DNA of 64,000 nt from NCBI GenBank assembly GCA_964402415.1, contig CAYOCI010000004.1, positions 20,346 through 84,345 of the forward strand. Direction: 5' to 3'. Within the stretch, counting starts at the first letter, position 1, and each line of letters opens with the position of its first letter. The notes beneath the pieces are model-generated. The model was given only the letters and a program-made list of their open reading frames with translations, was not told where the DNA came from and made no database searches. Origin of the DNA: an uncultured Clostridia bacterium. Its GTDB lineage: Bacteria > Bacillota > JAAYKD01 > CAYOCI01. The position numbers and the translations under genes are program-made. This document shows, piece after piece, positions 1 through 62,815 of the stretch.

Positions 1-792
1 GGTAGAACCTGTGCCTGTTGTGATAGGCCCCTCATCGAAGAAGGCCATGAGCAGGTCTTCAGCCTCCAGCCGGAGCTGGCCGGTCCACAGCTGCGTGAGA
101 TGATCCCCTCGTTCAAGCTGTTTGCGGTCTACATGGTTCAATGCCAATGTGGCGAGTGGTTCCATGGCGACTGCCTTATGCCGCTGCAACAGGAAACCGT
201 GATAGCGGTCGATATTCGTCAGCCCAATGGCGTCATCACCACCAAGCAGGGCGCGAGCCACTCCATCCACTGCCCCAAGTGTGGGCAGCTAGTCTGGGAG
301 GTCCGTGGGCAGCAGCCCCACCGGTGGCAGCAGGAACTGATGATCAGGCTTCCTCACCCCAGCGAAAAAAGAGCTGAGTTTCTGCGCAGCTATGAAGCAT
401 ATCTGCGGCCCCACCTGAGCGAATGGCCCAGCTTGGCTCTCCGCCCTCGAGGCAAGCGAGAACGTTCGTGGGCCCAACATCCCTATCCGAGGGGCGGGAG
501 CGTCCCCAGCGTTGACGAGATAGGGCGCAACTTCTGGATAGCCGATAAAACGCAAACGACCCTACATCATGTCGCCCAGGAGATCTGCACCAACGAGATC
601 ACCATCAAGGAGATCCTGGGCAACCATATCGCTGAACGCGAGCGAACGCGCACCGAGCGTGAGCACCTCGCGGCGGCTAATGCCGCCGCGAGCCGTCAGC
701 CATCAGGCGTCAGGCATCAGGAGAAGGATGCCCGCGAGGACAAGGCCACCGGATGGCGAGGTCTCTTCGGACTGGGGAAGAAGGGGGATTAG
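1..792 (+). CDS. Hypothetical Cys-rich (putative Zn-binding) protein, 5' truncated by the window edge
   Basis: Frame is open from base 1 (GRTCACCDRPL...) into ORF 100..792; CxxC-like motifs CACCD, CQCGEW and CPKCG. Confidence 0.6.
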   Translation, partial: GRTCACCDRPLIEEGHEQVFSLQPELAGPQLREMIPSFKLFAVYMVQCQCGEWFHGDCLMPLQQETVIAVDIRQPNGVITTKQGASHSIHCPKCGQLVWEVRGQQPHRWQQELMIRLPHPSEKRAEFLRSYEAYLRPHLSEWPSLALRPRGKRERSWAQHPYPRGGSVPSVDEIGRNFWIADKTQTTLHHVAQEICTNEITIKEILGNHIAERERTRTEREHLAAANAAASRQPSGVRHQEKDAREDKATGWRGLFGLGKKGD

Positions 793-924
793 TTAACAAG
801 GGGTCAGACCCCTTGTTAACTAATATTCTCAGGCGCGGTCATGCTGCGCATTCGGTTCTCATCGTCCCAGTGGTTCTCCTTCCCACTCCAAATCAACTGA
901 TGGCTGATGCCTGTTGGCTGATGG
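693..924. repeat. Inverted pair of CATCAGG/CTGATGG-type heptamer arrays enclosing a perfect palindrome
   Basis: 693-720 ccgtcagccatcaggcgtcaggcatcag and 897-924 ctgatggctgatgcctgttggctgatgg; perfect 18-bp inverted repeat at 788-824 (attagttaacaaggggtc-a-gaccccttgttaactaat). Confidence 0.8.
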
Positions 925-968
925 CACCTCCGGGGCCAATGGCCGAGCCATTGGCCCCGGAGGTTTTC

Positions 969-3167
969 ATGCAGCTCCTCGAAGGCACCGTTGAACGCAT
1001 CACCTTCCGCAATGACGAGACCCTCTACACCGTAGCCCGCTTCAAGGTGGGGCGGCGTGAGGGTCCTGCTACCATTGTCGGCAACTTCCCCAGTATCAAT
1101 GTCGGCGAGAGCCTGCGCCTCGAGGGCGAGTGGACCACCCATCCAGAGTATGGTCGCCAATTTAGGGTCAACAAAGTCGAGACCATGATCCCGGCCACTG
1201 TCAATGGCCTGGAACGTTACCTGGGCTCCGGGTTGGTCAAGGGGATCGGACCTAAGACGGCCAAGAAGCTGGTCGAGCGCTTCGGTCTCGACATTCTCGA
1301 TATCATCGAACAGGACCCTCGGCGGCTGACCGAGCTACCCGGCATTAGCGTCAGCAAGGCTCAGCGGATCCAGGCCGCCTACCTCGGGCAGAAAGAGATG
1401 AAGGATGTCTTGGTCTATCTGCAGGGGCACGGCATCAGCGCGACGTATGCGGTGAAGATCTACAAACATTACCGTGATCAGACCATGGCGATCGTCCAGC
1501 AGAACCCTTATCGTCTGGCTGATGAGGTCTTTGGGATAGGGTTCAAGACCGCCGACAAGATCGCTCAGCAGCTGGGCGTCGATCCTAGCTCGCCCCATCG
1601 CCTGGCCAGCGGTCTACAATACGTACTTGGTGAACTGGCCAATGAGGGGCATACCTACGTCCCGGAGGCCGAACTGCTGAACCAAGCCGCCGAAAATCTT
1701 GAGGTTGAGGCGCATCTGTTACAGGAGCCCTTGATCCAGCTGGCAGAGAGACGCCAGATCTTCATCGAATCCGACCTCAACGAGCAGCGGGTCTACCTAG
1801 CCCCCTTCCTCTATGCCGAGGCGGGGGTGGCTCGCTTGCTAAGCACCCTGACCCTGGGCCAGCTTCAGTCGACCCAACTCTCACTGGCTGGTATGGAACG
1901 GATGGTGGAAGAGGAGATCGACCAGGCAGAGAAGGTCCAAGGGATCACCTTTGCCCCCGAGCAGCGCGAGGCGCTGCGCCAGGCACTCAACTCTGGCGTG
2001 GTCGTCATCACCGGCGGCCCCGGAACGGGTAAGACCACCATCGTGCGGGCACTCTTGGAACTATATCAGCTCCGTGGGGCGAAGGTGCTGTTGGCCGCCC
2101 CCACCGGTCGCGCAGCTAAGCGCATGACCGAGGCGACCGGCAGGCCCTCGAAGACGATCCACCGCCTGCTGGAGTACAGCTTCGTTGCCGGTGCGGGGAT
2201 GAACTTCGCCCGCAACGAGGAGAACCCTCTGGAGGCCGACGTGGTGATCCTCGACGAGGTCTCCATGGTCGACCTGCTCCTCATGTACAACTTCCTGAAG
2301 GCGCTACCGCCGTCCTGCCGCCTAGTTCTAGTCGGCGACCGCGACCAGCTACCATCCGTGGGCGCAGGCAACGTGCTGAAAGATATCATCTCCTCTGAGA
2401 CCATCCCCACTGTTACCCTGAAGACTATCTTCCGTCAGGCGCAACAGAGCATGATTGTGGTGAACGCCCACCGTATCAACCAAGGCGAGTTCCCCCTGCT
2501 CAACGACCGCCAGGCTGACTTCTTCTTCATGGAAGAGGAGACCCCCGAGAAGGCGCTGCCCCTGATACTTGACCTGTGTGCTCGGCGGCTGCCTGCCTAT
2601 GCCAAGGTTGACCCGCTGGACGGGATCCAGGTCCTAGCGCCCATGCGTCGCGGGGCTGTTGGAGTGGAGACGCTCAACCATGAGCTACAGCAGGCGCTGA
2701 ACCCGGCCGATGCCCGCCGGAAGCCAGAGCTTAGGGTAGCTGGGACGGTTTACCGTTTGGGCGATAAGGTGATGCAGATCCGCAACAACTACCAGAAGAA
2801 TGTCTTCAACGGCGATATCGGCCGCATCTCTCAGATCGATGACGAGGAGGGTGAGCTGACCGTCGATTTCCCCGAGGCTGAAGGGGTGCACCGCGTCAGC
2901 TATGAGCTGACGGATTTGGACGAGTTGGTCCTCTCCTACGCGGTCTCCGTTCACAAGAGCCAGGGGAGCGAGTATCCCGTGGTGGTCATGCCGGTCATGA
3001 CCCAGCACTTCATGATGCTGCAGCGCAATCTGCTTTACACCGGCATCACCCGCGCCAAGCGTCTGGTGGTCCTGGTCGGCAGCAAGAAGGCGCTAGCCAT
3101 CGCGGTGAGTAACAATCGCGTCGCTGAGCGCTATTCGCGCCTAGCGGAGCGACTGCGATTGAATTAA
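969..3167 (+). CDS. recD2: ATP-dependent RecD-like (RecD2) SF1B DNA helicase
   Basis: N-terminal LEGTVERITFRN, HhH region (GIGPKTAKKLVERFG), Walker A GGPGTGKT, DEVSM, YAVSVHKSQGSEY; GGAGG RBS before ATG 969. Confidence 0.95.
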   Translation: MQLLEGTVERITFRNDETLYTVARFKVGRREGPATIVGNFPSINVGESLRLEGEWTTHPEYGRQFRVNKVETMIPATVNGLERYLGSGLVKGIGPKTAKKLVERFGLDILDIIEQDPRRLTELPGISVSKAQRIQAAYLGQKEMKDVLVYLQGHGISATYAVKIYKHYRDQTMAIVQQNPYRLADEVFGIGFKTADKIAQQLGVDPSSPHRLASGLQYVLGELANEGHTYVPEAELLNQAAENLEVEAHLLQEPLIQLAERRQIFIESDLNEQRVYLAPFLYAEAGVARLLSTLTLGQLQSTQLSLAGMERMVEEEIDQAEKVQGITFAPEQREALRQALNSGVVVITGGPGTGKTTIVRALLELYQLRGAKVLLAAPTGRAAKRMTEATGRPSKTIHRLLEYSFVAGAGMNFARNEENPLEADVVILDEVSMVDLLLMYNFLKALPPSCRLVLVGDRDQLPSVGAGNVLKDIISSETIPTVTLKTIFRQAQQSMIVVNAHRINQGEFPLLNDRQADFFFMEEETPEKALPLILDLCARRLPAYAKVDPLDGIQVLAPMRRGAVGVETLNHELQQALNPADARRKPELRVAGTVYRLGDKVMQIRNNYQKNVFNGDIGRISQIDDEEGELTVDFPEAEGVHRVSYELTDLDELVLSYAVSVHKSQGSEYPVVVMPVMTQHFMMLQRNLLYTGITRAKRLVVLVGSKKALAIAVSNNRVAERYSRLAERLRLN

Positions 3168-3587
3168 GAATTAAGAATGCAGAATTAAGAGTTGGAGAAC
3201 GAGGGCAGTGATGAGCGACAACGTTATCCGGGATAAGAGCAAGGGCTTTGCTCTTAGGGTGATAAAGCTGTATCAGTATCTGAATGAGGAGAAACACGAG
3301 TATGTCCTGTCTAAACAACTGCTGCGTAGCGGAACGAGCATTGGGGCAAATGTCCGTGAAGCAACAAGAGGACAATCAAAACCGGACTTTTACGCCAAGC
3401 TCCATATCGCACTGAAAGAAGCGGATGAAACAGCCTATTGGCTTGAACTGCTTCATGAAAGCGGGTACATGGATGACAAAACCTTTGCCAGTATCAACGC
3501 TGACTGCAACGAGCTGATGTCCATACTCGTTGCCATCCTAAGAACCAAGCACTCCAATTCTTAATTCTTCATTCTTAATTCTTAATT
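3161..3587. mobile_element. Candidate small element: four-helix-bundle gene flanked by 36-bp inverted heptamer (GAATTAA)n arms
   Basis: Left arm 3162-3197 and right arm 3552-3587 are reverse complements with 2 mismatches; the interior looks more AT-rich than the flanking genes. Mobility is inferred. Confidence 0.6.
3208..3564 (+). CDS. Four helix bundle protein (TIGR02436 / 23S rRNA IVS / Avd-like family)
   Basis: 118 aa with family motifs KSKGFALRVIKLY, SKQLLRSGTSIGANVREA, KLHIALKEADETAYWLELL. Confidence 0.92.
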   Translation: MMSDNVIRDKSKGFALRVIKLYQYLNEEKHEYVLSKQLLRSGTSIGANVREATRGQSKPDFYAKLHIALKEADETAYWLELLHESGYMDDKTFASINADCNELMSILVAILRTKHSNS

Positions 3588-3606
3588 TGAAGGGAGGGGA
3601 GGAACG

Positions 3607-4314
3607 ATGTCGGAGACATACGTGACGACCCTCACGAATTTGCTCTTCCCGCCGCGGCAGGTCTGTTCCCTCTGCGGTGATGCCATCGATGATCGTATAG
3701 ATTACGGCGTCTGCCCCGCTTGCCGGATCAAGCTCCCCTATATCGAGGACCCGGTCTGCCCGCGCTGTGGGGAACCGACCGATCATGCTCAGCTCTGCTC
3801 CGACTGCCGTTTGACTGACCACGCCTTTGTCGCATCTCGCTCGCTGTTCAGCTACGAAGGGCTAGGCAAGAAGCTGGTCACCAACCTCAAATTCCGCTTT
3901 CACCCGAGCCTGGCTCGACTATTGGCGGAAATGCTTTACAGCCGGGTCCTCAGTCAACTATCATGGAACTATGACCTGGTTGTCCCGGTCCCCCTCCACT
4001 GGCGCGGGCTCAAGGAGCGTGGCTACAACCAGAGCGAGCTCCTGGCCCGCGCCGTTGGCAGCCTGACATACCGCCCCGTGGTGGATGTCCTGCGTAAGCG
4101 CCACACTGCTGCGCCGCAGCATCACCTGGGCCGTGCCGGACGTTGGACAGCATTGGCCGATAGCTACCACTGCTCGGCGACCCAGGCGGTCAGAGGTAAG
4201 TCGATACTACTCGTCGACGATGTCTACACCACCGGCGCCACTGCCCATTTCTGCACCGAGGCGCTACTAAAGGCTGGCGCTATCTCAGTCCATGTCGTAA
4301 CCATTGCCAGGTAA
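3607..4314 (+). CDS. comFC: ComF family phosphoribosyltransferase-like competence protein with N-terminal double zinc ribbon
   Basis: CSLC/CPAC/CPRC/CSDC motifs, VPVPLH, RGYNQSELLA, LLVDDVYTTGAT. Confidence 0.92.
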   Translation: MSETYVTTLTNLLFPPRQVCSLCGDAIDDRIDYGVCPACRIKLPYIEDPVCPRCGEPTDHAQLCSDCRLTDHAFVASRSLFSYEGLGKKLVTNLKFRFHPSLARLLAEMLYSRVLSQLSWNYDLVVPVPLHWRGLKERGYNQSELLARAVGSLTYRPVVDVLRKRHTAAPQHHLGRAGRWTALADSYHCSATQAVRGKSILLVDDVYTTGATAHFCTEALLKAGAISVHVVTIAR

Positions 4315-4805: not shown

Positions 4806-4881
4806 AGTCCCTCGCCCCTCGTCCCTCGCCCCTCGTTGATAACCAACTTGTGGACCTGTGGACTTGTGTTCCTGTGGACTC
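4806..4881. repeat. CCCTCGY heptamer array followed by TGTGGAC(T/C) octamer array
   Basis: gtccctcgcccctcgtccctcgcccctcgt (4807-4836); ttgtggacctgtggacttgtgttcctgtggac (from 4848). Confidence 0.8.
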
Positions 4882-5737: not shown

Positions 5738-5836
5738 TGAGACACCAGACACTAGACACTAGAAGTCACGAAACCCGAAGGACCACTTGCATGCTTGTGG
5801 ACTTGTGTTCTTGTGGACTCCAGAGGAGTGAAGCCC

Positions 5837-6316: not shown

Positions 6317-6418
6317 ATCATCTGTTCGCTGCGTTCCTTTTCTCCCCCAATTCCCGATTCATCACTCCCAATTCTTGATTCTTTATTCTGAATTCTTAAT
6401 TTGATCGGGGTGACCACC

Positions 6419-7867: not shown

Positions 7868-8092
7868 CCAATTTGATGTAGGGGCGCCGCCATGCAGCGC
7901 CCGCCATATGGTCTATCGATCACACCACTGAGGGCTGCTCTGTGTCCTGGTGGTATGGCGCTCCACTGCTTGTGGACATGTGAACTTGTGTTCCTGTGGA
8001 CTGTTGGGTCCACTCATCCTACCCTCATCCTTCACCCATAGCCCTTACTGTGGGCTGTGGGCTGCGGGCTGCGGGCAATAGCGGAGGCACTT

Positions 8093-8986
8093 ATGCGCGT
8101 CACCAACTCCATGCTCACCGATGGCTTCATGCGCAACCTGCGCACTAATCTCCAAGGCCTGGACGAGATCCAACGCAAGCTCTCCTCGAAAAAGGAGGTC
8201 AGCCGCCCGTCGGATGATCCTGTCCGTCTGCAGCAGATTCTGAATCTCGATACATCCCTCGACCAGACCGAGCAGTTCCTGCGCAATATCGATAACGCCT
8301 CATCCTATCTCGCCACCACCGAAGGGGCGCTTAGCCAAGCCATGGCTCTGCTCTCCCGTGCTAGTGAATTGGGCACTCGCAGCCTCAACGGCACCAACAA
8401 CCAAGAGGCCATGGAGGCCACCGCCCAAGAGATCAAGCAACTCCTCGAACAGCTGGTCGAGGTGGCCAATACCACCCATACCGGACGCTATGTTTTCGCT
8501 GGGACCGATACATCCACCAAGCCGTACACCATCAGCAGCTTGGCGGTGACCGCCGAGTCCGAAGCGCCTAACGGCAAGATCGAGTATGAAGTCGGTCCAG
8601 GGGTGAAGATGACCATCAATGTCACCGGCCCAGAAGCCTTCGGTGATGGGGCAGACAGTGCCTTTACCGCTCTCCAAGAGCTTGCCGCTGCCATGAGCGC
8701 GGATGATAAGACAGCCATTAGCGCGGCCACGGAGAAGCTGACGATGGCCAGCGACAAGCTGCTGACCTCCCGCACCGACCTGGGAGCGAGGGTGAACCGC
8801 CTGGAAGCGACGGAAGATCGCTACCAGGAAGACCTAATCAATATCAAAGAGCTAAAGTCCAAGTCCGAGGATATCGATCTCGCCAAGGTGATCATGGATC
8901 TGAAGACCCAGGAAAGCGTTTACCAGGCCTCGCTGGCCGCCGGTGCGCGGATCATCCAACCCAGCTTGGTTGACTTCCTACGCTGA
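8093..8986 (+). CDS. flgL: Flagellar hook-associated protein 3
   Basis: MRVTNSM, SRPSDDP, GRYVFAGT, YQASLAAGARIIQPSLVDFLR. Confidence 0.96.
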   Translation: MRVTNSMLTDGFMRNLRTNLQGLDEIQRKLSSKKEVSRPSDDPVRLQQILNLDTSLDQTEQFLRNIDNASSYLATTEGALSQAMALLSRASELGTRSLNGTNNQEAMEATAQEIKQLLEQLVEVANTTHTGRYVFAGTDTSTKPYTISSLAVTAESEAPNGKIEYEVGPGVKMTINVTGPEAFGDGADSAFTALQELAAAMSADDKTAISAATEKLTMASDKLLTSRTDLGARVNRLEATEDRYQEDLINIKELKSKSEDIDLAKVIMDLKTQESVYQASLAAGARIIQPSLVDFLR

Positions 8987-9740: not shown

Positions 9741-9905
9741 GACGACCTAGGGTCGTCCAAACGCATCACAGACCTAATCCACACCTGGTCGGTGTGGATT
9801 TCTCATACATCGCTCCGAACTCCGCAGGTCCCTGCTCAGATCCCCCACTTGTGGACATGTGGACTTGTGTTCTTGTAGACTCTTAACCGACAGGAGGTCT
9901 CCCCC

Positions 9906-18514: not shown

Positions 18515-18632
18515 CGCGAAGCGCGGCCGAATGGAGTCCACAGGAACACAAGTCCACGAGTCCACAGCAGATATGGCGACGAAAGAACAAGGAATCAGGT
18601 AACAACGGGGTCAAACCCCGTTGTTACCTAAC

Positions 18633-21026: not shown

Positions 21027-21615
21027 TGGTGTGCTCTTGTTCCTGGTCCTGGGCTGGATACGCGGCGGCCGTCTAACTGGGCTGACCGAGATCTCGCTGC
21101 GGCAGTTCTGGCTGATTCTTGTGGCTCTGGTGCTGCGTGCGGGCCCGGTCTTTCTCGCTGGGTTCGGTGTGGAGGCGGCCCTGCGCTTTGGATCGGCCGC
21201 TCAGGTGATTGGCTACTTGGTACTCTTCCTCGCCCTGTATCTCAATAAAGAGATTCCTGGCATGCCACTCTTGGTCGTCGGTGTGGTACTGAACTTCCTC
21301 GTGATCCTAGCGAATCAAGGACGGATGCCGGTCTCGATGTGGGGAATCCAGGTGACCAATATGAACGACATGCTGCCGGTCTTGACCTCGGGGGCCTATA
21401 CGTCGCACAGCCTCTTGACGGAGGCGACGCGCCTTCCGTGGCTAGCCGATATCATCCCCATCCCCCGCCCGTACCCCCTGCCAAAGATCATCAGCATTGG
21501 CGATATCCTGATGGTTCTGGGAGTGGGGAGGCTCATCATGGTATCCATGATGAGCGCCCGCGGCCCGCAGCCCGCAGCCCGCAGTATGGGGGATCCAACG
21601 TCGGTGGGAGACTGA
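21016..21615 (+). CDS. DUF5317-like membrane protein
   Basis: GGRLTGL, LNFLVILANQGRMPVS, LPWLADIIPIP, SIGDIL; overlaps the HD-GYP stop. Confidence 0.75.
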   Translation: MLIDGVLLFLVLGWIRGGRLTGLTEISLRQFWLILVALVLRAGPVFLAGFGVEAALRFGSAAQVIGYLVLFLALYLNKEIPGMPLLVVGVVLNFLVILANQGRMPVSMWGIQVTNMNDMLPVLTSGAYTSHSLLTEATRLPWLADIIPIPRPYPLPKIISIGDILMVLGVGRLIMVSMMSARGPQPAARSMGDPTSVGD

Positions 21616-21770
21616 ACAGCCCGCGGACCACTGCCCCCAACTACAGAGCCGCACCCCTCGTCTTCGACCTCTACTGTTGGCCGTGGGCTGTGGACTCGTT
21701 GTGTCGCTGTCACGAACTGTTAACTTGTCTAAGGTCCTGGTATAGTGTTACAATACCATCGGGGAATTCT

Positions 21771-21798
21771 AGGTTGGGGCACCACCCCAACCTTTTTT
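21771..21798 (+). terminator. Intrinsic terminator-like hairpin upstream of secA
   Basis: aggttgggg-cacca-ccccaacct followed by ttttt. Confidence 0.65.
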
Positions 21799-21900
21799 GC
21801 TCAGTAGGAGCTACAGCGATTACAGAGCCGCACTCCTCGTCACTCGGCCTCTACTGTGGGCTGTGGGCTGTGGGCTGTGGACTCGATAGGGAGTGTTTCC

Positions 21901-25804: not shown

Positions 25805-25990
25805 CCACGTCATTCCTTGGTTGCCCAGCCCGAAGGCATCAGGCATCAGCTGGGGGAAAATACGGCCATCGGCCGCAGTTGGTCAGACTTGCCTGACTCC
25901 ACTCGCGCCCAGTCCCACCCGTATTTCTACCGTTGATCTCTGATGCCTGATGCCTGATGGCTTCGGGCACCGACGTAAGGAGGCATCGCC

Positions 25991-26490: not shown

Positions 26491-26992
26491 GAGTCCCTCG
26501 CCCCTCGTCCCTCGCCCCTCGTGAGAATGTCGAATAAGGCGTGGTTCAGGAAGATTGAAAGCCCGGAACTACTAGGGATTGCGGGCGCAGCATGGCTGCG
26601 CCCCTACATGTTGAGGTATCTCCCTGGGTCGTAGGGGCACGGCCATGCTGCGCCCGCGGCCTTTCGTCGGTCTCCCTAGTGGGAGAGACGGAGAAGTTGA
26701 GGAGCGCTACCGTGATTCGCAGAGCCGCCGATGGGCGGCTCTTTGCGTGTACATCAGAGCTAAATCTGACAAGCTTCGCCACATGTGGTAAAATGGCAGG
26801 AGTGTAAGCGGTGGTTTGGCCCTGCCAAGAGAGGAAATCATTCTCGTGGTTAGAATATAAGTAGGGATTTCGCGGTCCCAAGCCTGGTAGCGCTGCTACA
26901 TTGCACGTAGGGCAGGGCAGGTTTTGAAGCCCAGTGTCCAGCTACCAGTTCCCAGTGTTCTCACGAGGGGCGAGGGACGAGGGACTAGGGAC
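26491..26992. repeat. Inverted CCCTCG/CGAGGG heptamer pair enclosing a REP doublet, a terminator-like hairpin and a promoter
   Basis: agtccctcgcccctcgtccctcgcccctcgtgag versus ctcacgaggggcgagggacgaggggactagggac. Confidence 0.8.
26766..26794 (+). promoter_or_regulatory. SigA-type promoter for the cell-wall polymer locus
   Basis: CTGACA-N17-TAAAAT with TG at the extended -10. Confidence 0.6.
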
Positions 26993-31090: not shown

Positions 31091-32232
31091 TGGCTAGGGT
31101 TGTTATCTCGGGTTATTACGGTTTCAACAACGTGGGTGACGAAGCTATCCTGATCGCCATGAAAGAGGCACTGCTGCGTCAGGAGCCCAATCTGGAGATC
31201 ACAGTGCTCTCCGCCAACCCCCAGTTGACCGAAGACCAGTACGGGCTCCGCTCGATCGGCAGGGCCGACCTGTTCCCCATTCTCAAAGCCCTGCGCGAGG
31301 CAGATCTGTTGATCAGCGGTGGTGGCAGCCTGCTGCAGGATGTCACCAGCCACCGCAGTCTGCGTTATTATCTAAGCATCATGACCTTGGCCCGGATGGT
31401 TGGCTGTCCTGTGATGCTCTATGCACAAGGGATCGGCCCGATCCGCAATGGTTATAACCGCTGGCTGACGGGGGTGGTTCTGAACCGCGCCTCGTTGATC
31501 TCGGTCCGAGACGCTGCCTCTGCCGAGGAACTCCGCAGTCTGGGTGTCCTGCGTCCCCCGGTCCATGTCACCGCTGACCCTGTTGTGGCACTGCCACCGG
31601 CCAACCATGAGGTGGGAGCCGAGATCCTGCGGCAGGCGGGGGTTGAACTTGGGGGAGATGCTCCCCTGATAGGCGTTTCCGTGCGTGCCTGGCCTGGCCG
31701 TGAGCGCTTCACCACCGAGGCGGCCGAGGCGTTTGATCGGCTTATTGAGAATGAAGGCGTCCGCTTAGTCTTCATCCCAATGCATTTCCCCGAGGACCTG
31801 GAGATGACCAATAGCCTCCGGCGGGTGATGCGCCACGGGGACCAGACCAAAGTGCTCTGCAATCGCTACCACGCCCAAGAACTGCTCAGCGCTGTGGGAC
31901 ACCTGGACCTGCTGGTCGCGGTTCGGCTTCACGCTCTCATCTTTGCGGCCGTGATGAACGTACCAGGCGTGGCGATCAGCTACGACCCGAAGGTCGATCG
32001 TTTCGCTGACCTGGTCGGTCAGCCAATGGCAGGCAGCATGGAGCAACTCTCCGGAGACGAGCTCTACCGCGGCATGTCGGAGACCTTGCGCAACCGTCTC
32101 GCGATCAAGCAGCAGCTCGCCACCACGGTGGCCGACCTACAGGCCTCCGCCCTGGAGAATGCGCGCTTGGCAGCAGGGCTGCTGCGCGGCAGAAAAGACA
32201 CCAGACACCAGACACCAGAGGGCAGGTGCTAG
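31090..32232 (+). CDS. csaB: Polysaccharide pyruvyl transferase CsaB
   Basis: VVISGYYGFNNVGDEAIL, SGGGSLLQDVTS, YAQGIGP, SVRD, VTADPV, RLHALI, YDPKV. Confidence 0.95.
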   Translation: MARVVISGYYGFNNVGDEAILIAMKEALLRQEPNLEITVLSANPQLTEDQYGLRSIGRADLFPILKALREADLLISGGGSLLQDVTSHRSLRYYLSIMTLARMVGCPVMLYAQGIGPIRNGYNRWLTGVVLNRASLISVRDAASAEELRSLGVLRPPVHVTADPVVALPPANHEVGAEILRQAGVELGGDAPLIGVSVRAWPGRERFTTEAAEAFDRLIENEGVRLVFIPMHFPEDLEMTNSLRRVMRHGDQTKVLCNRYHAQELLSAVGHLDLLVAVRLHALIFAAVMNVPGVAISYDPKVDRFADLVGQPMAGSMEQLSGDELYRGMSETLRNRLAIKQQLATTVADLQASALENARLAAGLLRGRKDTRHQTPEGRC

Positions 32233-32413
32233 AAGAGACACCAGAGGGAAGACACCAGAGATCTGGTGAGACCCTCCGATGTAAGTTATCAGATGGGATT
32301 CTGGGACGCGGGAGTTGTCAGGTACCTGGATGCCGGTCGTTGTGTGGCGTGGCCCCACTTCTTCTGGTGCCCGGTGTCTGCCCTCTGGTGTCTCTCAACG
32401 GACGGTGAGTCAT

Positions 32414-33148
32414 TTGTCCAAACAAGCCAACATACTCGGCTACAAAGTAGATAATGTCACCATGGACGAAGCGCTGCAGCGCGTAGAACAGTACATACAG
32501 AAGAGGCAGCCGCGTCATCTCGTCACCATTAACCCCGAGATCATCATGTCGGCCGCGACCAACGATGAGCTACACAGAGCTCTGAAGAAGGCGGACCTGG
32601 TGGTTCCCGATGGCTCTGGTGTGGTCTGGGCCTCGCGGTATACCGGGCAGCCGCTGCCGGAGAGGGTAGCGGGCTACGACCTGATGCAGCGGATGTTGGC
32701 TCTGGCAGCAGAGAAGCGGTATCGGGTCTTTCTGCTCGGGGCAGCTCCTGGAGTGGCAAAGCAGGTAGCGCTGAGGATCACCGAACTCTATCCAGGCTGC
32801 ACCATCTGTGGGACGCAGGATGGATACTTCAAAGACGAAGAAGAGGCGGCTGTGGTGGCGACCATCGCGCAGTCGGGCGCTGACATGCTTTTCTGCGCTC
32901 TGGGTCCGCCTCGTCCGGCCGAGATTTGGGTCCAACGGCACCTCAGCACTCTCAACATCCCTGTTTCCATGGGGGTAGGGGGGAGCTTCAACGTTATGGC
33001 CGGCATCATCAAACGCGCCCCTGTCTGGATGCAGAAGATCAACCTGGAGTGGCTGCATCGGGCGCTATCTGACCCCAAGCGCATTAAGCGCTTGGCAGTG
33101 CTGCCGAGGTTCGTGATGAAGGTGGTTAGATCTAGAATTAAGAATTAA
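32414..33148 (+). CDS. tagA: WecB/TagA/CpsF family N-acetylmannosaminyltransferase
   Basis: LVTINPE, VPDGSGVVWA, ERVAGYDL, FLLGAAPGVA, GVGGSFNV, NLEWLHR; start codon approximate. Confidence 0.93.
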   Translation: MSKQANILGYKVDNVTMDEALQRVEQYIQKRQPRHLVTINPEIIMSAATNDELHRALKKADLVVPDGSGVVWASRYTGQPLPERVAGYDLMQRMLALAAEKRYRVFLLGAAPGVAKQVALRITELYPGCTICGTQDGYFKDEEEAAVVATIAQSGADMLFCALGPPRPAEIWVQRHLSTLNIPVSMGVGGSFNVMAGIIKRAPVWMQKINLEWLHRALSDPKRIKRLAVLPRFVMKVVRSRIKN

Positions 33149-33286
33149 GAATGAAGAATTAAGAGTTAGGAATTGGGAGTACATAGAATTGAGAACTGCG
33201 ATGATGAGGAACATGACTGCTGCGTGTCCGCAGGGGTCTTCCGGTCATCCTGGTATTCTTAATTCTTCATTCTTAATTCCTAATTC
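33135..33286. repeat. Inverted GAATTAA/TTAATTC heptamer pair without a cargo gene
   Basis: 33135-33167 matches 3161-3193 with one mismatch; right arm 33255-33286 ends just before the transketolase RBS. Confidence 0.9.
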
Positions 33287-33303
33287 GAAACGGAGGTTTC
33301 GTT

Positions 33304-37135: not shown

Positions 37136-37650
37136 AGGATATAACCTCCGTGTTGTCAAAGCCCGCCGCCCGCTGCCCGCCGCCCACGGTTAGGGTCGAC
37201 GACGGACTACGTGCCGTATCGGACTGAATTCGCTCTACTGCCGTCTGGTAAGTCAGGGTGACGCGGTACCTACGATCCTTCCCACTGAGGGCCGTGAGCC
37301 GCGGGCTGCGGGCAGTCTTGTATCAGTTTACCACAATAGTGACTCAAACTCTAATTTCTTCCATGGTTTATCTTAACCACAAATCTCGGCAGGAATCATC
37401 TTTTTGCTGTCGAACACGTAGAGATGAATCGGATTATGTCACTTTGTTTCCTCTTTTGCAACCTGTCACGTCGATTGGTGGAACCTCTGGTTCCGGTGTC
37501 ACGTCCTATTGGTGTTGCGGGTTTCGTGCTGCAGTCTGTTCTCAGCTTGACGATGATTGCGATTATGGGACCACCAGCCAACCCGCCAGACGAGGAGATA
37601 CGTTATCTCTTCTGTGGGCTGTGGGCTGTGGACTCCATGGAGGTTATTTC

Positions 37651-42293: not shown

Positions 42294-42521
42294 GGGCCCG
42301 CGGCCCACAGCCCGCCGCCCACAGATAGAGAAACGTTGGACCGAACCGAGTTCCTGAACTTCGCTACCTGACCGACGGGCCACCCCAGAGTGGTCCGTTG
42401 TCGTACTGAGGGTTGGTAGTTAACAGCTCATGGATGCGCAATAGCTCCAACTCGCTCGGCCATACTCCGCTCACTGCGGGCTGCGGGCTGCGGGCTGCGG
42501 GCTTGTGGAAGGAGGGTTACG

Positions 42522-43748: not shown

Positions 43749-44037
43749 CAGAGTCCCTAGTCTCGAGTCCCTAGTCCCTAGTGAGATACGGGGGAACCGC
43801 GGGCGCGGCAACTAGCGCCTCTACGGTATTGAGCGCGGGTTCATGTGTAGGGGAGTAGCCATGCTGCGCCCAAAGGTCGCCGTTCAGGCGACCTTTCCGT
43901 CTCTTGGGACCTCTGTCCCCAATCTTGGACACACCCACGAGGGGCGAGGGCCGAGGGGCTAGGGGCTAGCGCAGCGTGACTAGGGACTCGCGAAGCGGGG
44001 CATACTAACCAGTGACGCAATTCGCGGAGGTGGTTAG

Positions 44038-49022: not shown

Positions 49023-49151
49023 CCTGCGTTTGCGCTTTCTCCGCTGAGCTCCGTGCGCGCGGGCGTATGCGATACGCCCCTACAAGGATGGCCCACTTGA
49101 CTTGTAAATGATCAGTCGATTCGCTCGTAGGGGCGCATTGCATACGCCCGC
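49023..49151. repeat. REP doublet, family A, copy 2
   Basis: gggcgtatgcgatacgcccctac...gtaggggcgcattgcatacgcccgc. Confidence 0.85.
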
Positions 49152-53594: not shown

Positions 53595-53758
53595 TCCCTA
53601 GTCCCTAGTCCCCAGTCCCTAGTCCCTAGCGGGGAACCTGGACTGCTGAACTCGCGGGCTTACTGCTCATTTCAGAAGTGTCCCGTCTCGATTCGGTGAC
53701 CCTTGGGACCGGTAGTCTTATCTGCCTACTAGGGACTAGGGACCAGGGACTAGGGACT
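53595..53758. repeat. Inverted GTCCCTA/TAGGGAC heptamer pair
   Basis: ctccctagtccctagtccccagtccctagtccctag versus ctactagggactagggaccagggactagggact. Confidence 0.85.
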
Positions 53759-55148: not shown

Positions 55149-55275
55149 CTTAATCTGACTGACAAAGAAACCAGAAACTGACTAGTGACAAACCGTCGCG
55201 GATGCTTTATCATTAGGAATGTCAAAACTACAAAATCCTACGGAACGCGTTAGCGATTGTGTTTTTACCTACAGA

Positions 55276-55457
55276 GAGTTTTCGGGAGCTGGAGTTCCGG
55301 TGGTGCTGATAAGCCTTCACTCGATGCCATGCATTTGAGTCGAAGGAAATCAAAAACCCGACGGACAGGCGCCCACCTGCAAGAGCAGGTCTAAAAACTC
55401 AGTAGCGACGGTTTAGTGGGATAGCGAAAGCCAATGGTGTGAACCATTGGCTTTTTT
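55276..55457 (+). ncRNA. Candidate structured leader RNA ending in an intrinsic terminator
   Basis: Pairings GAGTTTT/AAAAACTC, TCGGG/CCCGA, CCTTCACTC/GAGTCGAAGG, ACCTGC/GCAGGT; terminator aaagccaatgg...ccattggctttttt. Family not recognised. Confidence 0.45.
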
Positions 55458-58119: not shown

Positions 58120-58246
58120 TGCGTTTGCGCTCTCTACGCTGTGCTTTGGTCGCGTGGGCGTATGCAATACGCCCCTACGCAGTGGCCTGCATGCCATCCA
58201 GCGCATACGGTTGAGTTGGTTGTAGGGGCGTATTGCATACGCCCGC
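58120..58246. repeat. REP doublet, family A, copy 3
   Basis: gggcgtatgcaatacgcccctac...gtaggggcgtattgcatacgcccgc. Confidence 0.85.
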
Positions 58247-58356
58247 GGGTCGCCGCGAGGTGACCTAACCGAAACAGGGGACTAATCCTCAGGCGTAGCA
58301 GATGCTTTTTCGACAGCCTCTCCAGTGTCTTGGGTCTGATATGTATCGAGCGCAGC

Positions 58357-59343: not shown

Positions 59344-59615
59344 GCGCCTCGCGAGCTCTCTCGAGCGCGGATGACAAGCTCGGCTGCAGAACCCGATACT
59401 CCGTACCACCACCGGTGGCTGGTGGCTGGTGGCTGTGGACTCGGCCGCAAGGCCGTTGGTCTGTGGACTGTGGTCTGTGGACTCTTTGAACTTGTGGACT
59501 TGTGGTCTTGTGGACTCCACTGTCACAAGGCATACACCTCCATCAGCATTCTTGACCACCTTGAGGATCGGCAAACATAGGCTTCCTTCTGCTATAATGG
59601 GATGGGGGTGATGGC

Positions 59616-61654: not shown

Positions 61655-62503
61655 ATGAGCCGTATTGCCATCGTCACCGACAGCACTGCGTATCTACCGG
61701 ATGGATACGCCCAGGAGCACCATGTACACATCCTACCATTGATGGTCGTCAGCGGCGATCGTTCCTATCTCGAAGGGGTTGACCTGAGCAACGACGATTT
61801 CTACTGTATGCTCCAGGCTGGTCAGGAGCTGCCGACCACTTCGCAGCCTGGCCTGGGAGCAACCGCTACGCTCTTTGAGCGCTTGGTAGCAGACCACTAC
61901 GATGAGGCTGTTTGCATTCATCTATCAAGCGGGATTAGCGGGACATATGCCACTACCGTGACCGCTGGCGGGATGATCCCAGGCATCAAGGTACAGGTCT
62001 TTGACTCGGAGATCAGCACCATGGTCCAGGGTTTCTATGTTCAGGAAGCAGTGCGTATGGTGGAAGCGGGCTGCGACAGCCAGGCGGTGATGGCGCATCT
62101 AGATGCGCTGAAGCGCAGGATGAGAGCGTACTTTGTGGTTGATGATCTGAACAACCTTTACAAAGGTGGTCGCCTACCCAAGATCGCCAGTACTGTAGGT
62201 GGCGCTCTACAGATCAAACCGATCCTTCATTTTCGCGAAGGCAAAATCGTGCCGTGCGAGTTGGCCAGAACCATGCGGCGGGCGATGAGCAACATTGTCG
62301 AGAGGTTCGAGAGTGATGCTCAGTGTGGTCAGCCGATGCGTGCGGTCCTGGTCCACGGGCACGCGCCCGAAGAGGCTGCTGCCCTGATGGAAGAGATCAG
62401 CGCTCGTTACCCGCATGTCGAGGTGGTCATCAGCGAGATAGGGCCCGTGATCGGAACCCATCTGGGGGCGGGCTCACTTGGTTTAGGCTGGTATATCAAA
62501 TAG
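61655..62503 (+). CDS. degV: DegV family fatty-acid-binding protein
   Basis: IAIVTDSTAYLP, PTTSQPG, IHLSSGISGTY, NLYKGGR, IKPIL, GPVIGTHLGAG. Confidence 0.94.
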   Translation: MSRIAIVTDSTAYLPDGYAQEHHVHILPLMVVSGDRSYLEGVDLSNDDFYCMLQAGQELPTTSQPGLGATATLFERLVADHYDEAVCIHLSSGISGTYATTVTAGGMIPGIKVQVFDSEISTMVQGFYVQEAVRMVEAGCDSQAVMAHLDALKRRMRAYFVVDDLNNLYKGGRLPKIASTVGGALQIKPILHFREGKIVPCELARTMRRAMSNIVERFESDAQCGQPMRAVLVHGHAPEEAAALMEEISARYPHVEVVISEIGPVIGTHLGAGSLGLGWYIK

Positions 62504-62815
62504 GAGCGGCAATGCCGCTCCTATTTGATATACCAGTAGCCCAAAGCCCAGCGACCTACGGTCGAGCCCAAAGGCCAACGTAAGGGACAAGGGGCAACGA
62601 GTACAGCGCATCTAAGGACCTTCGTGCAGTCGCGAAGTCATGCGACGGTTTGGTGTGTTCGATAGGCGATAGGATGAATATGGCACCCGCGTCAGCCATC
62701 GGATAGTCGATGATGGGGCAGGAATAGCTCGGACTCATCTCGAAACCTAGGAGTCCAAACACCTTTGGGCTTTGGCCTTTGGACTCCGCGTACTACGCGG
62801 CGAGGGGGGAAGACG

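What the first reader, a model, noticed from the sequence alone, without database searches (positions are those of the whole stretch)
3161..3587. Four-helix-bundle (IVS/Avd-like) gene packaged between heptamer inverted arms as a self-contained cassette
Seen: 36-bp arms with 2 mismatches. The left arm supplies the recD2 stop (AAT TAA) and a GGAG for the cassette gene; the right arm supplies the cassette gene's own stop and ends just before the comFC RBS. Removing the cassette would leave recD2 next to comFC. The interior looks AT-richer than the flanks. Known: this family was first found in excised 23S rRNA intervening sequences and is structurally related to Avd, the RNA-binding partner of DGR reverse transcriptases. 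Inference: a minimal transposase-free mobile or excisable unit in mRNA context, with the protein possibly acting on the heptamer stem.
Basis: partly seen in the sequence, partly recalled or inferred. Interest (0 to 1): 0.8.

Follow-up and report, generated by a model that had tools for sequence, protein, structure and literature searches.

The report
IVS-type four-helix-bundle gene cassette in an operon
A small, AT-rich four-helix-bundle gene between recD2 and comFC is bracketed by inverted arrays of a 7-base repeat, the same build as the "intervening sequences" cut out of some 23S rRNAs, and relatives of this gene across several phyla turn out to carry such arms wherever they sit.

Summary
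Arms 3162-3197 and 3552-3587 are 34/36 complementary heptamer arrays. They enclose a PF05635/TIGR02436 gene (ATG 3211 to stop 3564) between recD2 and comFC, and the insert is AT-richer than its flanks.

The arms are a property of the gene family, not of this locus:
- In 80 metagenomic loci with homologues, 57 of 74 testable genes have flanking inverted repeats, against 1 of 190 shifted controls.
- Almost all of these arms are period-7 arrays with the unit A-R-T-K-N-R-N.
- Examples from named organisms, mostly cultured (Nostoc, Monoglobus, Bernardetia, Chlorohelix), show the same.
- Three loci are true 23S rRNA intervening sequences with the same arms.
- 44 of 51 cassettes lie between co-directional genes.

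Locally:
- The same arms recur as a 92-nt-interior mini-element (33133-33287) and a solo right arm (6355-6402).
- Two relatives carry different heptamer-armed inserts at the recD2-comFC junction.
- Two metatranscriptomes hold an RNA contig that spans only the interior (3193-3555).

Best reading: an IVS-type selfish cassette whose arms pair in the transcript as a probable RNase III substrate. How it moves is unknown. No target-site duplication, empty site or excision product was found. I rate it a new variant of a known kind; no prior description turned up in the searchable literature.

The parts
3162..3197 (+). Left arm: array of heptamers AATTAAG/AATGCAG/AGTTGGAG (array begins at 3161). It contains the recD2 stop TAA at 3165-3167.
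3201..3205 (+). Likely Shine-Dalgarno (GAGGG) of the cassette gene, 5 nt before ATG 3211, just inside the loop.
   Evidence: start codon fixed by the alignment consensus
3211..3564 (+). Four-helix-bundle gene, 117 aa, PF05635 / TIGR02436. Its stop TAA 3562-3564 lies in the right arm.
3552..3587 (+). Right arm: inverted heptamer array (CTTAATT units). It ends 10 nt before the comFC Shine-Dalgarno.
3193..3555 (+). Span of the RNA contig in two metatranscriptomes: the interior plus only 4-5 nt of each arm. 3193 pairs with 3556 in the stem.
753..3167 (+). recD2, the upstream host gene. Its last codons and stop lie in the first heptamer.
3607..4314 (+). comFC (ComF family), the downstream host gene.
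33133..33287 (+). Mini-element with near-identical arms (33135-33164 / 33257-33286) and a 92-nt interior that keeps short end fragments of the cassette. It lies between two co-directional ORFs; the upstream stop is in the first heptamer and GGAGG follows the right arm.
6355..6402 (+). Solo right arm (ACTCCCAATTCTTGATTCTTTATTCTGAATTCTTAATT) directly upstream of the flgK start. No left arm is present.

Best explanation
This is an IVS-type selfish gene cassette living inside a protein-coding transcription unit. The unit is [left heptamer array] - ribosome-binding site - four-helix-bundle ORF - [inverted heptamer array]. It is promoter-less as far as a sigma-70 consensus scan can tell, and co-oriented with its host genes.

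Proposed working. When recD2-comFC is transcribed, the two arms pair into a stem of about 36 bp that loops out the ORF. By analogy with the homologous 23S rRNA intervening sequences, this double-stranded RNA is cut by RNase III. That would release a discrete, abundant four-helix-bundle RNA and separate the upstream and downstream host messages.

The arms and the gene travel together as one horizontally acquired unit. That unit decays in place into mini-elements and solo arms.

Shown: the architecture, its conservation across the family, its presence in real 23S IVSs, turnover at this junction, multicopy arms, and an interior-only RNA contig.

Inferred: RNase III cleavage at this locus, the mobility itself and its mechanism, and recognition of the conserved A-R-T-K part of each heptamer by the pentameric protein.
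For: Architecture: 36-nt arms, 34/36 paired. In the RNA fold the arms pair and enclose the ORF: -155.2 kcal/mol against -124.1 +/- 6.0 in shuffles, z = -5.15.

Family-wide pattern:
- 57/74 homologous loci have flanking inverted repeats scoring at least 14 (median 19), against 1/190 shifted controls (median 7.5).
- 47/50 arrays fit the unit A-R-T-K, against 19% of random AT-rich heptamers.
- Unit variants are mirrored in the partner arm: position 2 G:C 39 against 12 unmatched; position 4 G:C 35 against 31 unmatched.
- 99 of 122 arrays in those loci lie within 200 nt of a four-helix-bundle gene. Background in unrelated genomes is 0.028 arrays per kb.
- Arms are also present in Nostoc, Monoglobus, Bernardetia and Chlorohelix records.

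Same kind as 23S IVSs: L068 and L105 (helix 45 region) and L106 interrupt 23S rRNA and carry the same arms. For the Coxiella IVS, RNase III excision, a 28-bp terminal stem and tandem heptameric repeats are documented (PMC4990558).

Operon residency: 44/51 cassettes have both neighbours co-directional, with gaps of 36 and 41 nt. Neighbours span 134 Pfam families.

Foreign and unstable here:
- GC is about 0.46 against about 0.6 in the flanks.
- Two relatives carry different heptamer arrays at the same junction, and L001 lacks the gene.
- A mini-element and a solo arm share the arms.
- Arms are 3-25 times deeper than the unique flanking sequence in the DNA runs.

RNA: in X2 and X4 the contig is 3193-3555 or 3193-3552 at depth 19.1 and 3.2-6.8. 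recD2 is at depth 0, and other genes of this organism in an 11-kb stretch of the window are at 2.5-4.7. DNA contigs of the same kind run 25-36 nt into the arms; the RNA contig does not.

The gene is under constraint: most of the listed differences from the X3 strain fall at third codon positions (14 of 20 by my count). The structure model has pLDDT 93.7 and TM 0.93 to 2RLD.
Against: - Mismatches in the arms show no excess of sense-strand G:U pairs: 27 G-T type against 34 A-C type. Selection for RNA pairing rather than DNA symmetry is therefore not demonstrated.
- RNA evidence comes from assembled contigs, not reads. A stable stem can also depress cDNA coverage without any cleavage. A weak promoter in the left arm is not excluded, although the consensus scan found none.
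- No empty site, excision joint at this locus, circle or target-site duplication was found.
- No pair of near-identical cassettes was found in unrelated contexts.
- The X3 strain keeps the cassette, apparently at the same place, which fits ordinary vertical inheritance over short times.
- In Coxiella the encoded protein is reported as probably not made.
Confidence: 0.55

Rival explanations
1. DNA-level terminal-inverted-repeat element. The arms are transposon ends bound by a recombinase supplied in trans (or by the four-helix-bundle protein itself). The mini-element and solo arms are MITE-like derivatives, and the RNA stem is a by-product.
For: Inverted terminal arrays with sharply defined AAT(T/G)...(A/C)ATT termini in many loci. 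Multicopy arms, an internally deleted derivative and arm-to-arm joints without interior in DNA contigs. No G:U bias.
Against: No target-site duplication in 33 of 39 loci. No transposase or recombinase family stands out among the 25 most frequent neighbour families, nor is one adjacent to the cassette here. 61 of 65 upstream neighbours are co-directional, which random DNA insertion would not give without strong selection. Homologous elements in 23S rRNA are processed as RNA.
Confidence: 0.2
2. Domesticated operon punctuation. The arms and gene are kept by the host as a processing or insulation site that uncouples expression of neighbouring genes, and the protein is a regulator or RNA chaperone. 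No current mobility.
For: The cassette is retained in the X3 strain. The gene is under purifying selection. In this genome most intergenic regions are bracketed by heptamer array pairs placed just after stops and just before starts. Solo right arms sit directly upstream of start codons.
Against: The cassette is absent from L001 at the same junction, where other inserts stand. It is AT-rich and foreign in composition. Contexts are extremely diverse and the cassettes enter rRNA. There can be several cassettes per operon.
Confidence: 0.15
3. Coincidence with host repeats. The heptamer arrays are this genome's own intergenic repeats, and a small unrelated gene happens to lie between two of them.
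For: 29-35 heptamer arrays in 64 kb, many as inverted pairs enclosing non-coding DNA with no four-helix-bundle remnant.
Against: The host's other arrays are GC-rich and of other sequence. The AATTAAG arms match the family rule A-R-T-K-N-R-N found next to homologues in unrelated organisms. Arrays are about 15 times rarer in unrelated genomes, yet cluster at four-helix-bundle genes.
Confidence: 0.05
4. A dedicated partner of recD2/comFC: a competence or DNA-processing accessory protein, with the repeats serving as its regulatory hairpin.
For: It is co-transcribed by position with recD2 and comFC.
Against: The gene is missing from L001, which keeps recD2-comFC-yvyF. Homologues sit in restriction-modification, ABC transporter, arabinose and many other operons, and in 23S rRNA.
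Confidence: 0.03

Closest known systems
23S rRNA intervening sequences that encode an S23p / four-helix-bundle ORF (Coxiella burnetii, Leptospira; PMC4990558)
   Same: Same protein family, and terminal inverted repeats that form a long stem around the ORF. Tandem heptameric repeats are noted at the 5' end of the Coxiella IVS. Three homologous loci in my sample (L068, L105, L106) are such IVSs and carry the same A-R-T-K heptamer arms.
   Different: This copy is not in rRNA. It lies between two protein-coding genes, supplies the upstream gene's stop codon, and has a good ribosome-binding site. RNase III cleavage is not shown here.
Avd, the accessory protein of diversity-generating retroelements (PDB 4DWL, 8UB7)
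   Same: Four-helix-bundle fold, TM 0.73-0.76. Avd forms a positively charged pentameric barrel described as similar to S23 ribosomal proteins, and it is needed for cDNA synthesis by the DGR reverse transcriptase on its RNA (bioRxiv 10.1101/2023.10.23.563531). The closest solved relative, 2RLD, has 5 chains in the entry.
   Different: Only 13-16% identity. No reverse transcriptase, template or variable repeat is nearby: the neighbours are RecD2, ComFC and YvyF. Reverse transcriptase is not among the frequent neighbour families.
Miniature inverted-repeat elements that sit in operons and are cut by RNase III, such as Neisseria Correia elements (from my own knowledge, not tested here)
   Same: Small inverted-repeat-bounded inserts between co-transcribed genes, able to fold in mRNA. 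Multicopy, with truncated derivatives.
   Different: Correia elements encode nothing, have fixed-sequence inverted repeats and a TA target duplication. Here the arms are heptamer arrays of variable sequence, a conserved gene is carried, and no duplication is seen.
Intergenic heptamer repeats of cyanobacteria, Beggiatoaceae and Bacteroidetes (STRR; TAACTGA repeats, PMC4679880)
   Same: Tandem 7-mers in intergenic regions, often ending a few bases upstream of a start codon. They are patchily distributed across phyla with no known mechanism. The reverse complement of TAACTGA rotates to AGTTATC, which fits A-R-T-K. Nostoc cassettes carry such arrays.
   Different: Those reports describe direct repeats without a linked gene. 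A link to four-helix-bundle genes is not made in the papers I could search.

Membership tests
PF05635 / TIGR02436 four-helix-bundle (23S rRNA IVS protein) family | Profile match above the curated cutoff | tested here: met
   PF05635 99.8 bits (cutoff 33.8); TIGR02436 110.1 bits (cutoff 24)
PF05635 / TIGR02436 four-helix-bundle (23S rRNA IVS protein) family | Four-helix up-down bundle fold like 2RLD / 2GSC | tested here: met
   Model pLDDT 93.7 with four helices. TM 0.93 to 2RLD and 0.73 to 2GSC. Sequence E-value 4e-49 to 2RLD.
PF05635 / TIGR02436 four-helix-bundle (23S rRNA IVS protein) family | Homopentameric ring | not tested
   2RLD has 5 chains and Xcc0516 is reported as a homopentamer. 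No multimer model was made for this protein.
23S rRNA intervening sequence (IVS) element | ORF of the S23p family enclosed by terminal inverted repeats that form a stem | tested here: met
23S rRNA intervening sequence (IVS) element | Inserted in a 23S rRNA helix (25 or 45) | tested here: not met
   No 23S similarity in the window. Rfam finds only 6S RNA. The neighbours are recD2 and comFC.
23S rRNA intervening sequence (IVS) element | Excised from the precursor RNA by RNase III | tested here: inconclusive
   An interior-only RNA contig 3193-3555 appears in two metatranscriptomes. It is suggestive, but it comes from assemblies and not from mapped ends, and there is no rnc control.
Terminal-inverted-repeat transposon / MITE | Terminal inverted repeats and multiple copies | tested here: met
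Terminal-inverted-repeat transposon / MITE | Target-site duplication flanking the ends | tested here: not met
   None in 33 of 39 loci; 2 bp in 5 loci and 4 bp in 1, as chance would give.
Terminal-inverted-repeat transposon / MITE | Cognate transposase, in the element or identifiable in trans | tested here: not met
   The only ORF is the four-helix-bundle protein. No transposase family stands out among the frequent neighbour families. The rest of the genome could not be searched.
Diversity-generating retroelement (Avd module) | Adjacent reverse transcriptase with template and variable repeats | tested here: not met
   The neighbours are RecD2, ComFC, YvyF and flagellar genes.
Known anti-phage defence or phage protein families | Match to PADLOC or PHROGs models | tested here: not met
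   0 families in each library, although neighbours are often restriction-modification genes.

The most novel reading that the evidence does not exclude
Four-helix-bundle genes with inverted A-R-T-K-N-R-N heptamer arrays may be a very large, unrecognised class of transposase-free mobile cassettes that colonise transcribed DNA (operons and rRNA). The Avd-like pentamer would read the heptamer arrays. 23S intervening sequences would be one special case. The gene-less array pairs and solo arrays that pepper this genome, and perhaps the cyanobacterial and Bacteroidetes heptamer repeats, would be their non-autonomous or decayed offspring.
Probability: 0.3. Interest if true: 0.9.

Novelty: new variant of a known kind. 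Interest (0 to 1): 0.72.

Why it matters
The origin and meaning of rRNA intervening sequences, and of intergenic heptamer repeats, have been open questions since the 1990s.

If the rule seen here holds, IVSs are only the rRNA-resident minority (3 of 80 loci in my sample) of a cassette that mostly lives inside ordinary operons, often restriction-modification ones. A protein family with many thousands of members, annotated only as "four helix bundle protein", would then gain a concrete and testable nucleic-acid partner: the A-R-T-K heptamer array.

It would also give a reason why long operons in many bacteria are cut into separate RNAs at these points. And it provides a simple sequence signature for annotating such inserts.

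Tried and rejected
- **Promoter.** I looked for a sigma-70-like promoter or terminator in 2900-3800. No promoter was found, and one chance-level terminator lies inside comFC.
- **Rfam.** No family matches the arms or the cassette.
- **Excision or empty site.** The DNA runs show only arm-to-arm joints of other copies with unknown flanks. Nothing joins recD2 to comFC.
- **G:U bias.** Tested as a sign of RNA-level selection; none was found.
- **Target-site duplications.** None found.
- **Near-identical cassettes in unrelated contexts**, which would prove recent movement. All pairs at 80% nt identity or more share flanks.
- **Decayed four-helix-bundle genes inside the GC-rich array pairs of the window.** None found.
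- **Synteny.** recD2-comFC adjacency was checked in 39 RecD2 loci. Only L001 shares it, so the synteny test rests on three relatives.
- **HEPN paper (PMC3710099).** It does not mention this family, so I make no HEPN claim.
- **Prior description.** Seven full-text searches found no paper that links these genes to heptamer arms. Subscription journals are not covered, so prior description cannot be excluded.
Full report
**1. What is in the sequence**

Between recD2 (753-3167; TIGR01448, 926.6 bits) and comFC (3607-4314; ComF family) lies a 117-codon ORF, ATG 3211 to TAA 3564. It matches PF05635 (99.8 bits) and TIGR02436 (110.1 bits).

It is bracketed by arms 3162-3197 and 3552-3587, 36 nt each with 2 mismatches. 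Both arms are period-7 arrays. An ungapped inverted-repeat score of 30 compares with at most 11-12 in shuffles.

- The recD2 stop TAA 3165-3167 lies in the first heptamer.
- The cassette stop lies in the right arm.
- The right arm ends 10 nt before the comFC Shine-Dalgarno.
- GC falls from about 0.6 to 0.42-0.49 across the insert.
- The better ribosome-binding site for the cassette gene is GAGGG 3201-3205, in the loop, not the GGAG in the arm.

A model built from 34 homologues is a four-helix bundle (pLDDT 93.7). Its TM-score is 0.93 to 2RLD (BT_0352, "S23 ribosomal protein family"), 0.73 to Xcc0516 and 0.73-0.76 to Avd of the Bordetella phage retroelement.

**2. The arms belong to the gene family**

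The closest homologues (70-76% aa) are very numerous: 7,993 proteins below 1e-10 among the 8,000 candidates scored. In the first contigs I opened they sit between genes of restriction-type operons. One operon holds three copies, and each copy is flanked by inverted heptamer arrays of a different sequence.

I then took 80 metagenomic loci with homologues of 53-73% identity. In each I scored the best inverted repeat between the 180 nt around the start codon and the 180 nt around the stop codon.

| Set | n | Score at least 14 | Median score |
|---|---|---|---|
| Four-helix-bundle loci | 74 | 57 (40 at 18 or more) | 19 |
| Positions shifted 1-1.5 kb in the same loci | 190 | 1 | 7.5 |

Nearly all arms are period-7 arrays with a median length of 31 nt.

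The heptamers differ between loci (AATTCGG, AATGCGG, AATTGAC, AATTCAT, AGTTAGG and others). Even so, 47 of 50 fit A-[A/G]-T-[T/G]-N-[A/G]-N on the sense strand of the left arm, against 19% of random AT-rich heptamers. The window's AATTAAG fits.

Unit variants are mirrored in register in the partner arm. At position 2 there are 39 G:C pairs against 12 unmatched. At position 4 there are 35 against 31. The G variants occur on the left arm and almost never as C, so the arms have a polarity tied to the gene's direction.

Arrays are 0.41 per kb in these loci, and 99 of 122 lie within 200 nt of the gene. In 456 kb of unrelated genomes the rate is 0.028 per kb.

Records of named organisms, most of them cultured, show the same:
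- Nostoc flagelliforme pNFSY06: perfect 35-nt AATTCGT arms.
- Nostoc punctiforme pNPUN01.
- Monoglobus pectinilyticus: between hsdS and hsdR.
- Bernardetia: upstream of recF.
- Candidatus Chlorohelix.
- Treponema saccharophilum also shows heptamer arrays, but its inverted-repeat score (13) is near chance.

**3. Link to rRNA intervening sequences**

Three of the 80 loci are real 23S rRNA insertions. In L068 and L105, similarity to E. coli 23S stops at about position 1157-1159 (the helix 45 region) and resumes further downstream. In L106 the cassette lies between positions about 1703 and 1770. All three carry A-R-T-K heptamer arms.

For the Coxiella IVS, one paper reports a 28-bp terminal stem, RNase III excision and tandem heptameric repeats before the ORF. 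It also recalls the old idea that the IVS is a mobile element whose ORF serves its mobility (PMC4990558).

The window's insert is therefore the same kind of element as a 23S IVS, placed in an mRNA instead of an rRNA.

**4. Context**

- 61 of 65 upstream neighbours and 49 of 58 downstream neighbours are co-directional.
- Both are co-directional in 44 of 51 loci.
- Median gaps of 36 and 41 nt are little more than the arms.
- Neighbours span 134 Pfam families. Restriction-modification is the most frequent (ResIII 6, Methylase_S 5, HSDR_N 4, N6_N4_Mtase 4), but ABC transporters, arabinose genes and others also occur.
- An earlier paper noted such genes between cas genes (PMC3936711).
- The protein matches no PADLOC or PHROGs model.

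**5. Signs that the unit is foreign and unstable in this genome**

The same arms recur twice in the window.
- A mini-element at 33133-33287 has arms that differ from the cassette's at only one or two positions. Its 92-nt interior keeps short pieces of the cassette's ends. It lies between two co-directional ORFs in the same way as the cassette.
- A solo right arm at 6355-6402 sits directly before flgK.

In the source metagenomes the arms are 3-25 times deeper than the unique flanking sequence. Right arms are deeper than left arms, and contigs exist in which a left arm abuts a right arm with no interior.

At the recD2-comFC junction three relatives differ.
- The window has the AATTAAG cassette.
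- L136 (ComFC 88% aa) has a CGAGGGG/CTAGGGG array before comFC. Its contig is short, and only about 107 nt upstream of comFC can be seen.
- L001 (RecD2 88%, ComFC 80%) has an AGTCCCA array plus a GC-rich hairpin and no four-helix-bundle gene.

A strain-level relative in run X3 holds an 88%-identical cassette at matching depth. The insert is therefore not brand new.

Closer proteins share the variable heptamer triplet more often even in different contexts: 28% at 65-75% identity against 5% below 55%, Mann-Whitney p = 3.5e-5. So the arms are partly co-inherited with the gene, but they turn over fast.

**6. RNA**

The 481-nt RNA folds with the arms paired around the ORF: -155.2 kcal/mol, z = -5.15.

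In two metatranscriptomes from the source study, the assembled RNA covers 3193-3555 (X2, depth 19.1) and 3193-3552 (X4, depth 3.2-6.8). recD2 has depth 0 and comFC at most 14.3. Other genes of this organism, over an 11-kb stretch of the window, reach 2.5-4.7 in X2.

DNA contigs of the same pipeline extend 25-36 nt into the arms, whereas the RNA contigs stop 4-5 nt inside each arm, at positions nearly opposite in the stem (3193 pairs with 3556). This fits excision of the loop from the stem. It also fits poor cDNA synthesis through a stable duplex. A promoter inside the arm is less likely, since none was found.

**7. What is not shown**

- There is no G:U excess in arm mismatches.
- There is no target-site duplication.
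- There is no empty site or excision joint at this locus.
- No near-identical cassettes occur in unrelated contexts.
- Nothing tests what the protein does.

The mechanism of spread is therefore open. A classic cut-and-paste transposon is unlikely. RNA-level behaviour like an IVS is the best-supported part.

**8. Verdict**

The element is a member of the four-helix-bundle protein family. It works like a 23S IVS but fails the defining feature of being inside rRNA, so I file it as a new variant of a known kind.

Three family-wide rules were not found in seven full-text searches: inverted A-R-T-K-N-R-N heptamer arrays, operon residency, and IVSs as a special case. Journals outside the library cannot be excluded.

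Noticed in passing
whole window; e.g. 25828-25968, 26493-26992, 32196-32395, 43751-43989, 53595-53758, 21556-21880, 37161-37631, 42296-42503: The genome is packed with GC-rich heptamer arrays: 29-35 in 64 kb, about 16 times the rate in other genomes. Nearly all are intergenic, usually one array 3-18 nt after a stop codon and its inverted partner 18-40 nt before the next start codon. They enclose non-coding DNA with no four-helix-bundle remnant.
   Followed up: partly
26581-26657, 49059-49151, 58153-58247; also L001 about 8400-8432 and the start of L136: A second repeat family of paired hairpins, GCGGGCG...CGCCCCTAC / GTAGGGGCG...CGCCCGC, which looks REPIN-like. It is often found inside the GC-rich heptamer-bracketed intergenic regions.
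   Followed up: no
window 3161-3587, L001 8308-8540, L136 1-107: The recD2-comFC junction carries a different heptamer-armed insert in each of three relatives, as if this intergenic slot were repeatedly refilled.
   Followed up: partly
4846-4880, 5794-5819, 7969-7990, 9847-9881, 18535-18566, 59462-59516: Period-8 arrays of TGTGGAC-like units. At least the first three sit just upstream of the next ORFs in the flagellar gene region.
   Followed up: no
55232-55426 (+): 6S RNA (RF00013, 62.5 bits), the only Rfam match in the window.
   Followed up: no
62488-62536: A perfect 24-nt palindrome with a 1-nt centre, CTGGTATATCAAATAGGAGCGGCA / TGCCGCTCCTATTTGATATACCAG.
   Followed up: no
L043 and L044: 1978-2331, 3001-3369, 5536-5895: Three four-helix-bundle cassettes, each with a different heptamer, lie inside one SNF2 - DUF4391 - methylase - ResIII operon. 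Sister contigs carry other small genes in the third slot.
   Followed up: partly
L093, L094, L095, L096, L100, L102, L120: The cassette gene is 99.7-100% identical across these contigs, while the 600-nt flanks are only 82-98% identical. This suggests recent exchange of the cassette or unusually strong constraint.
   Followed up: no
L106 1-1849: A 23S rRNA gene with two interruptions: one in the helix 45 region and a second between E. coli positions about 1703 and 1770. The second holds the four-helix-bundle cassette.
   Followed up: no
L008 12152-12224; L009 3167-3239: Gene-less heptamer palindromes, i.e. two inverted arrays 4-15 nt apart, in Bacteroidetes and Saprospiraceae contigs fetched for another purpose.
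   Followed up: no
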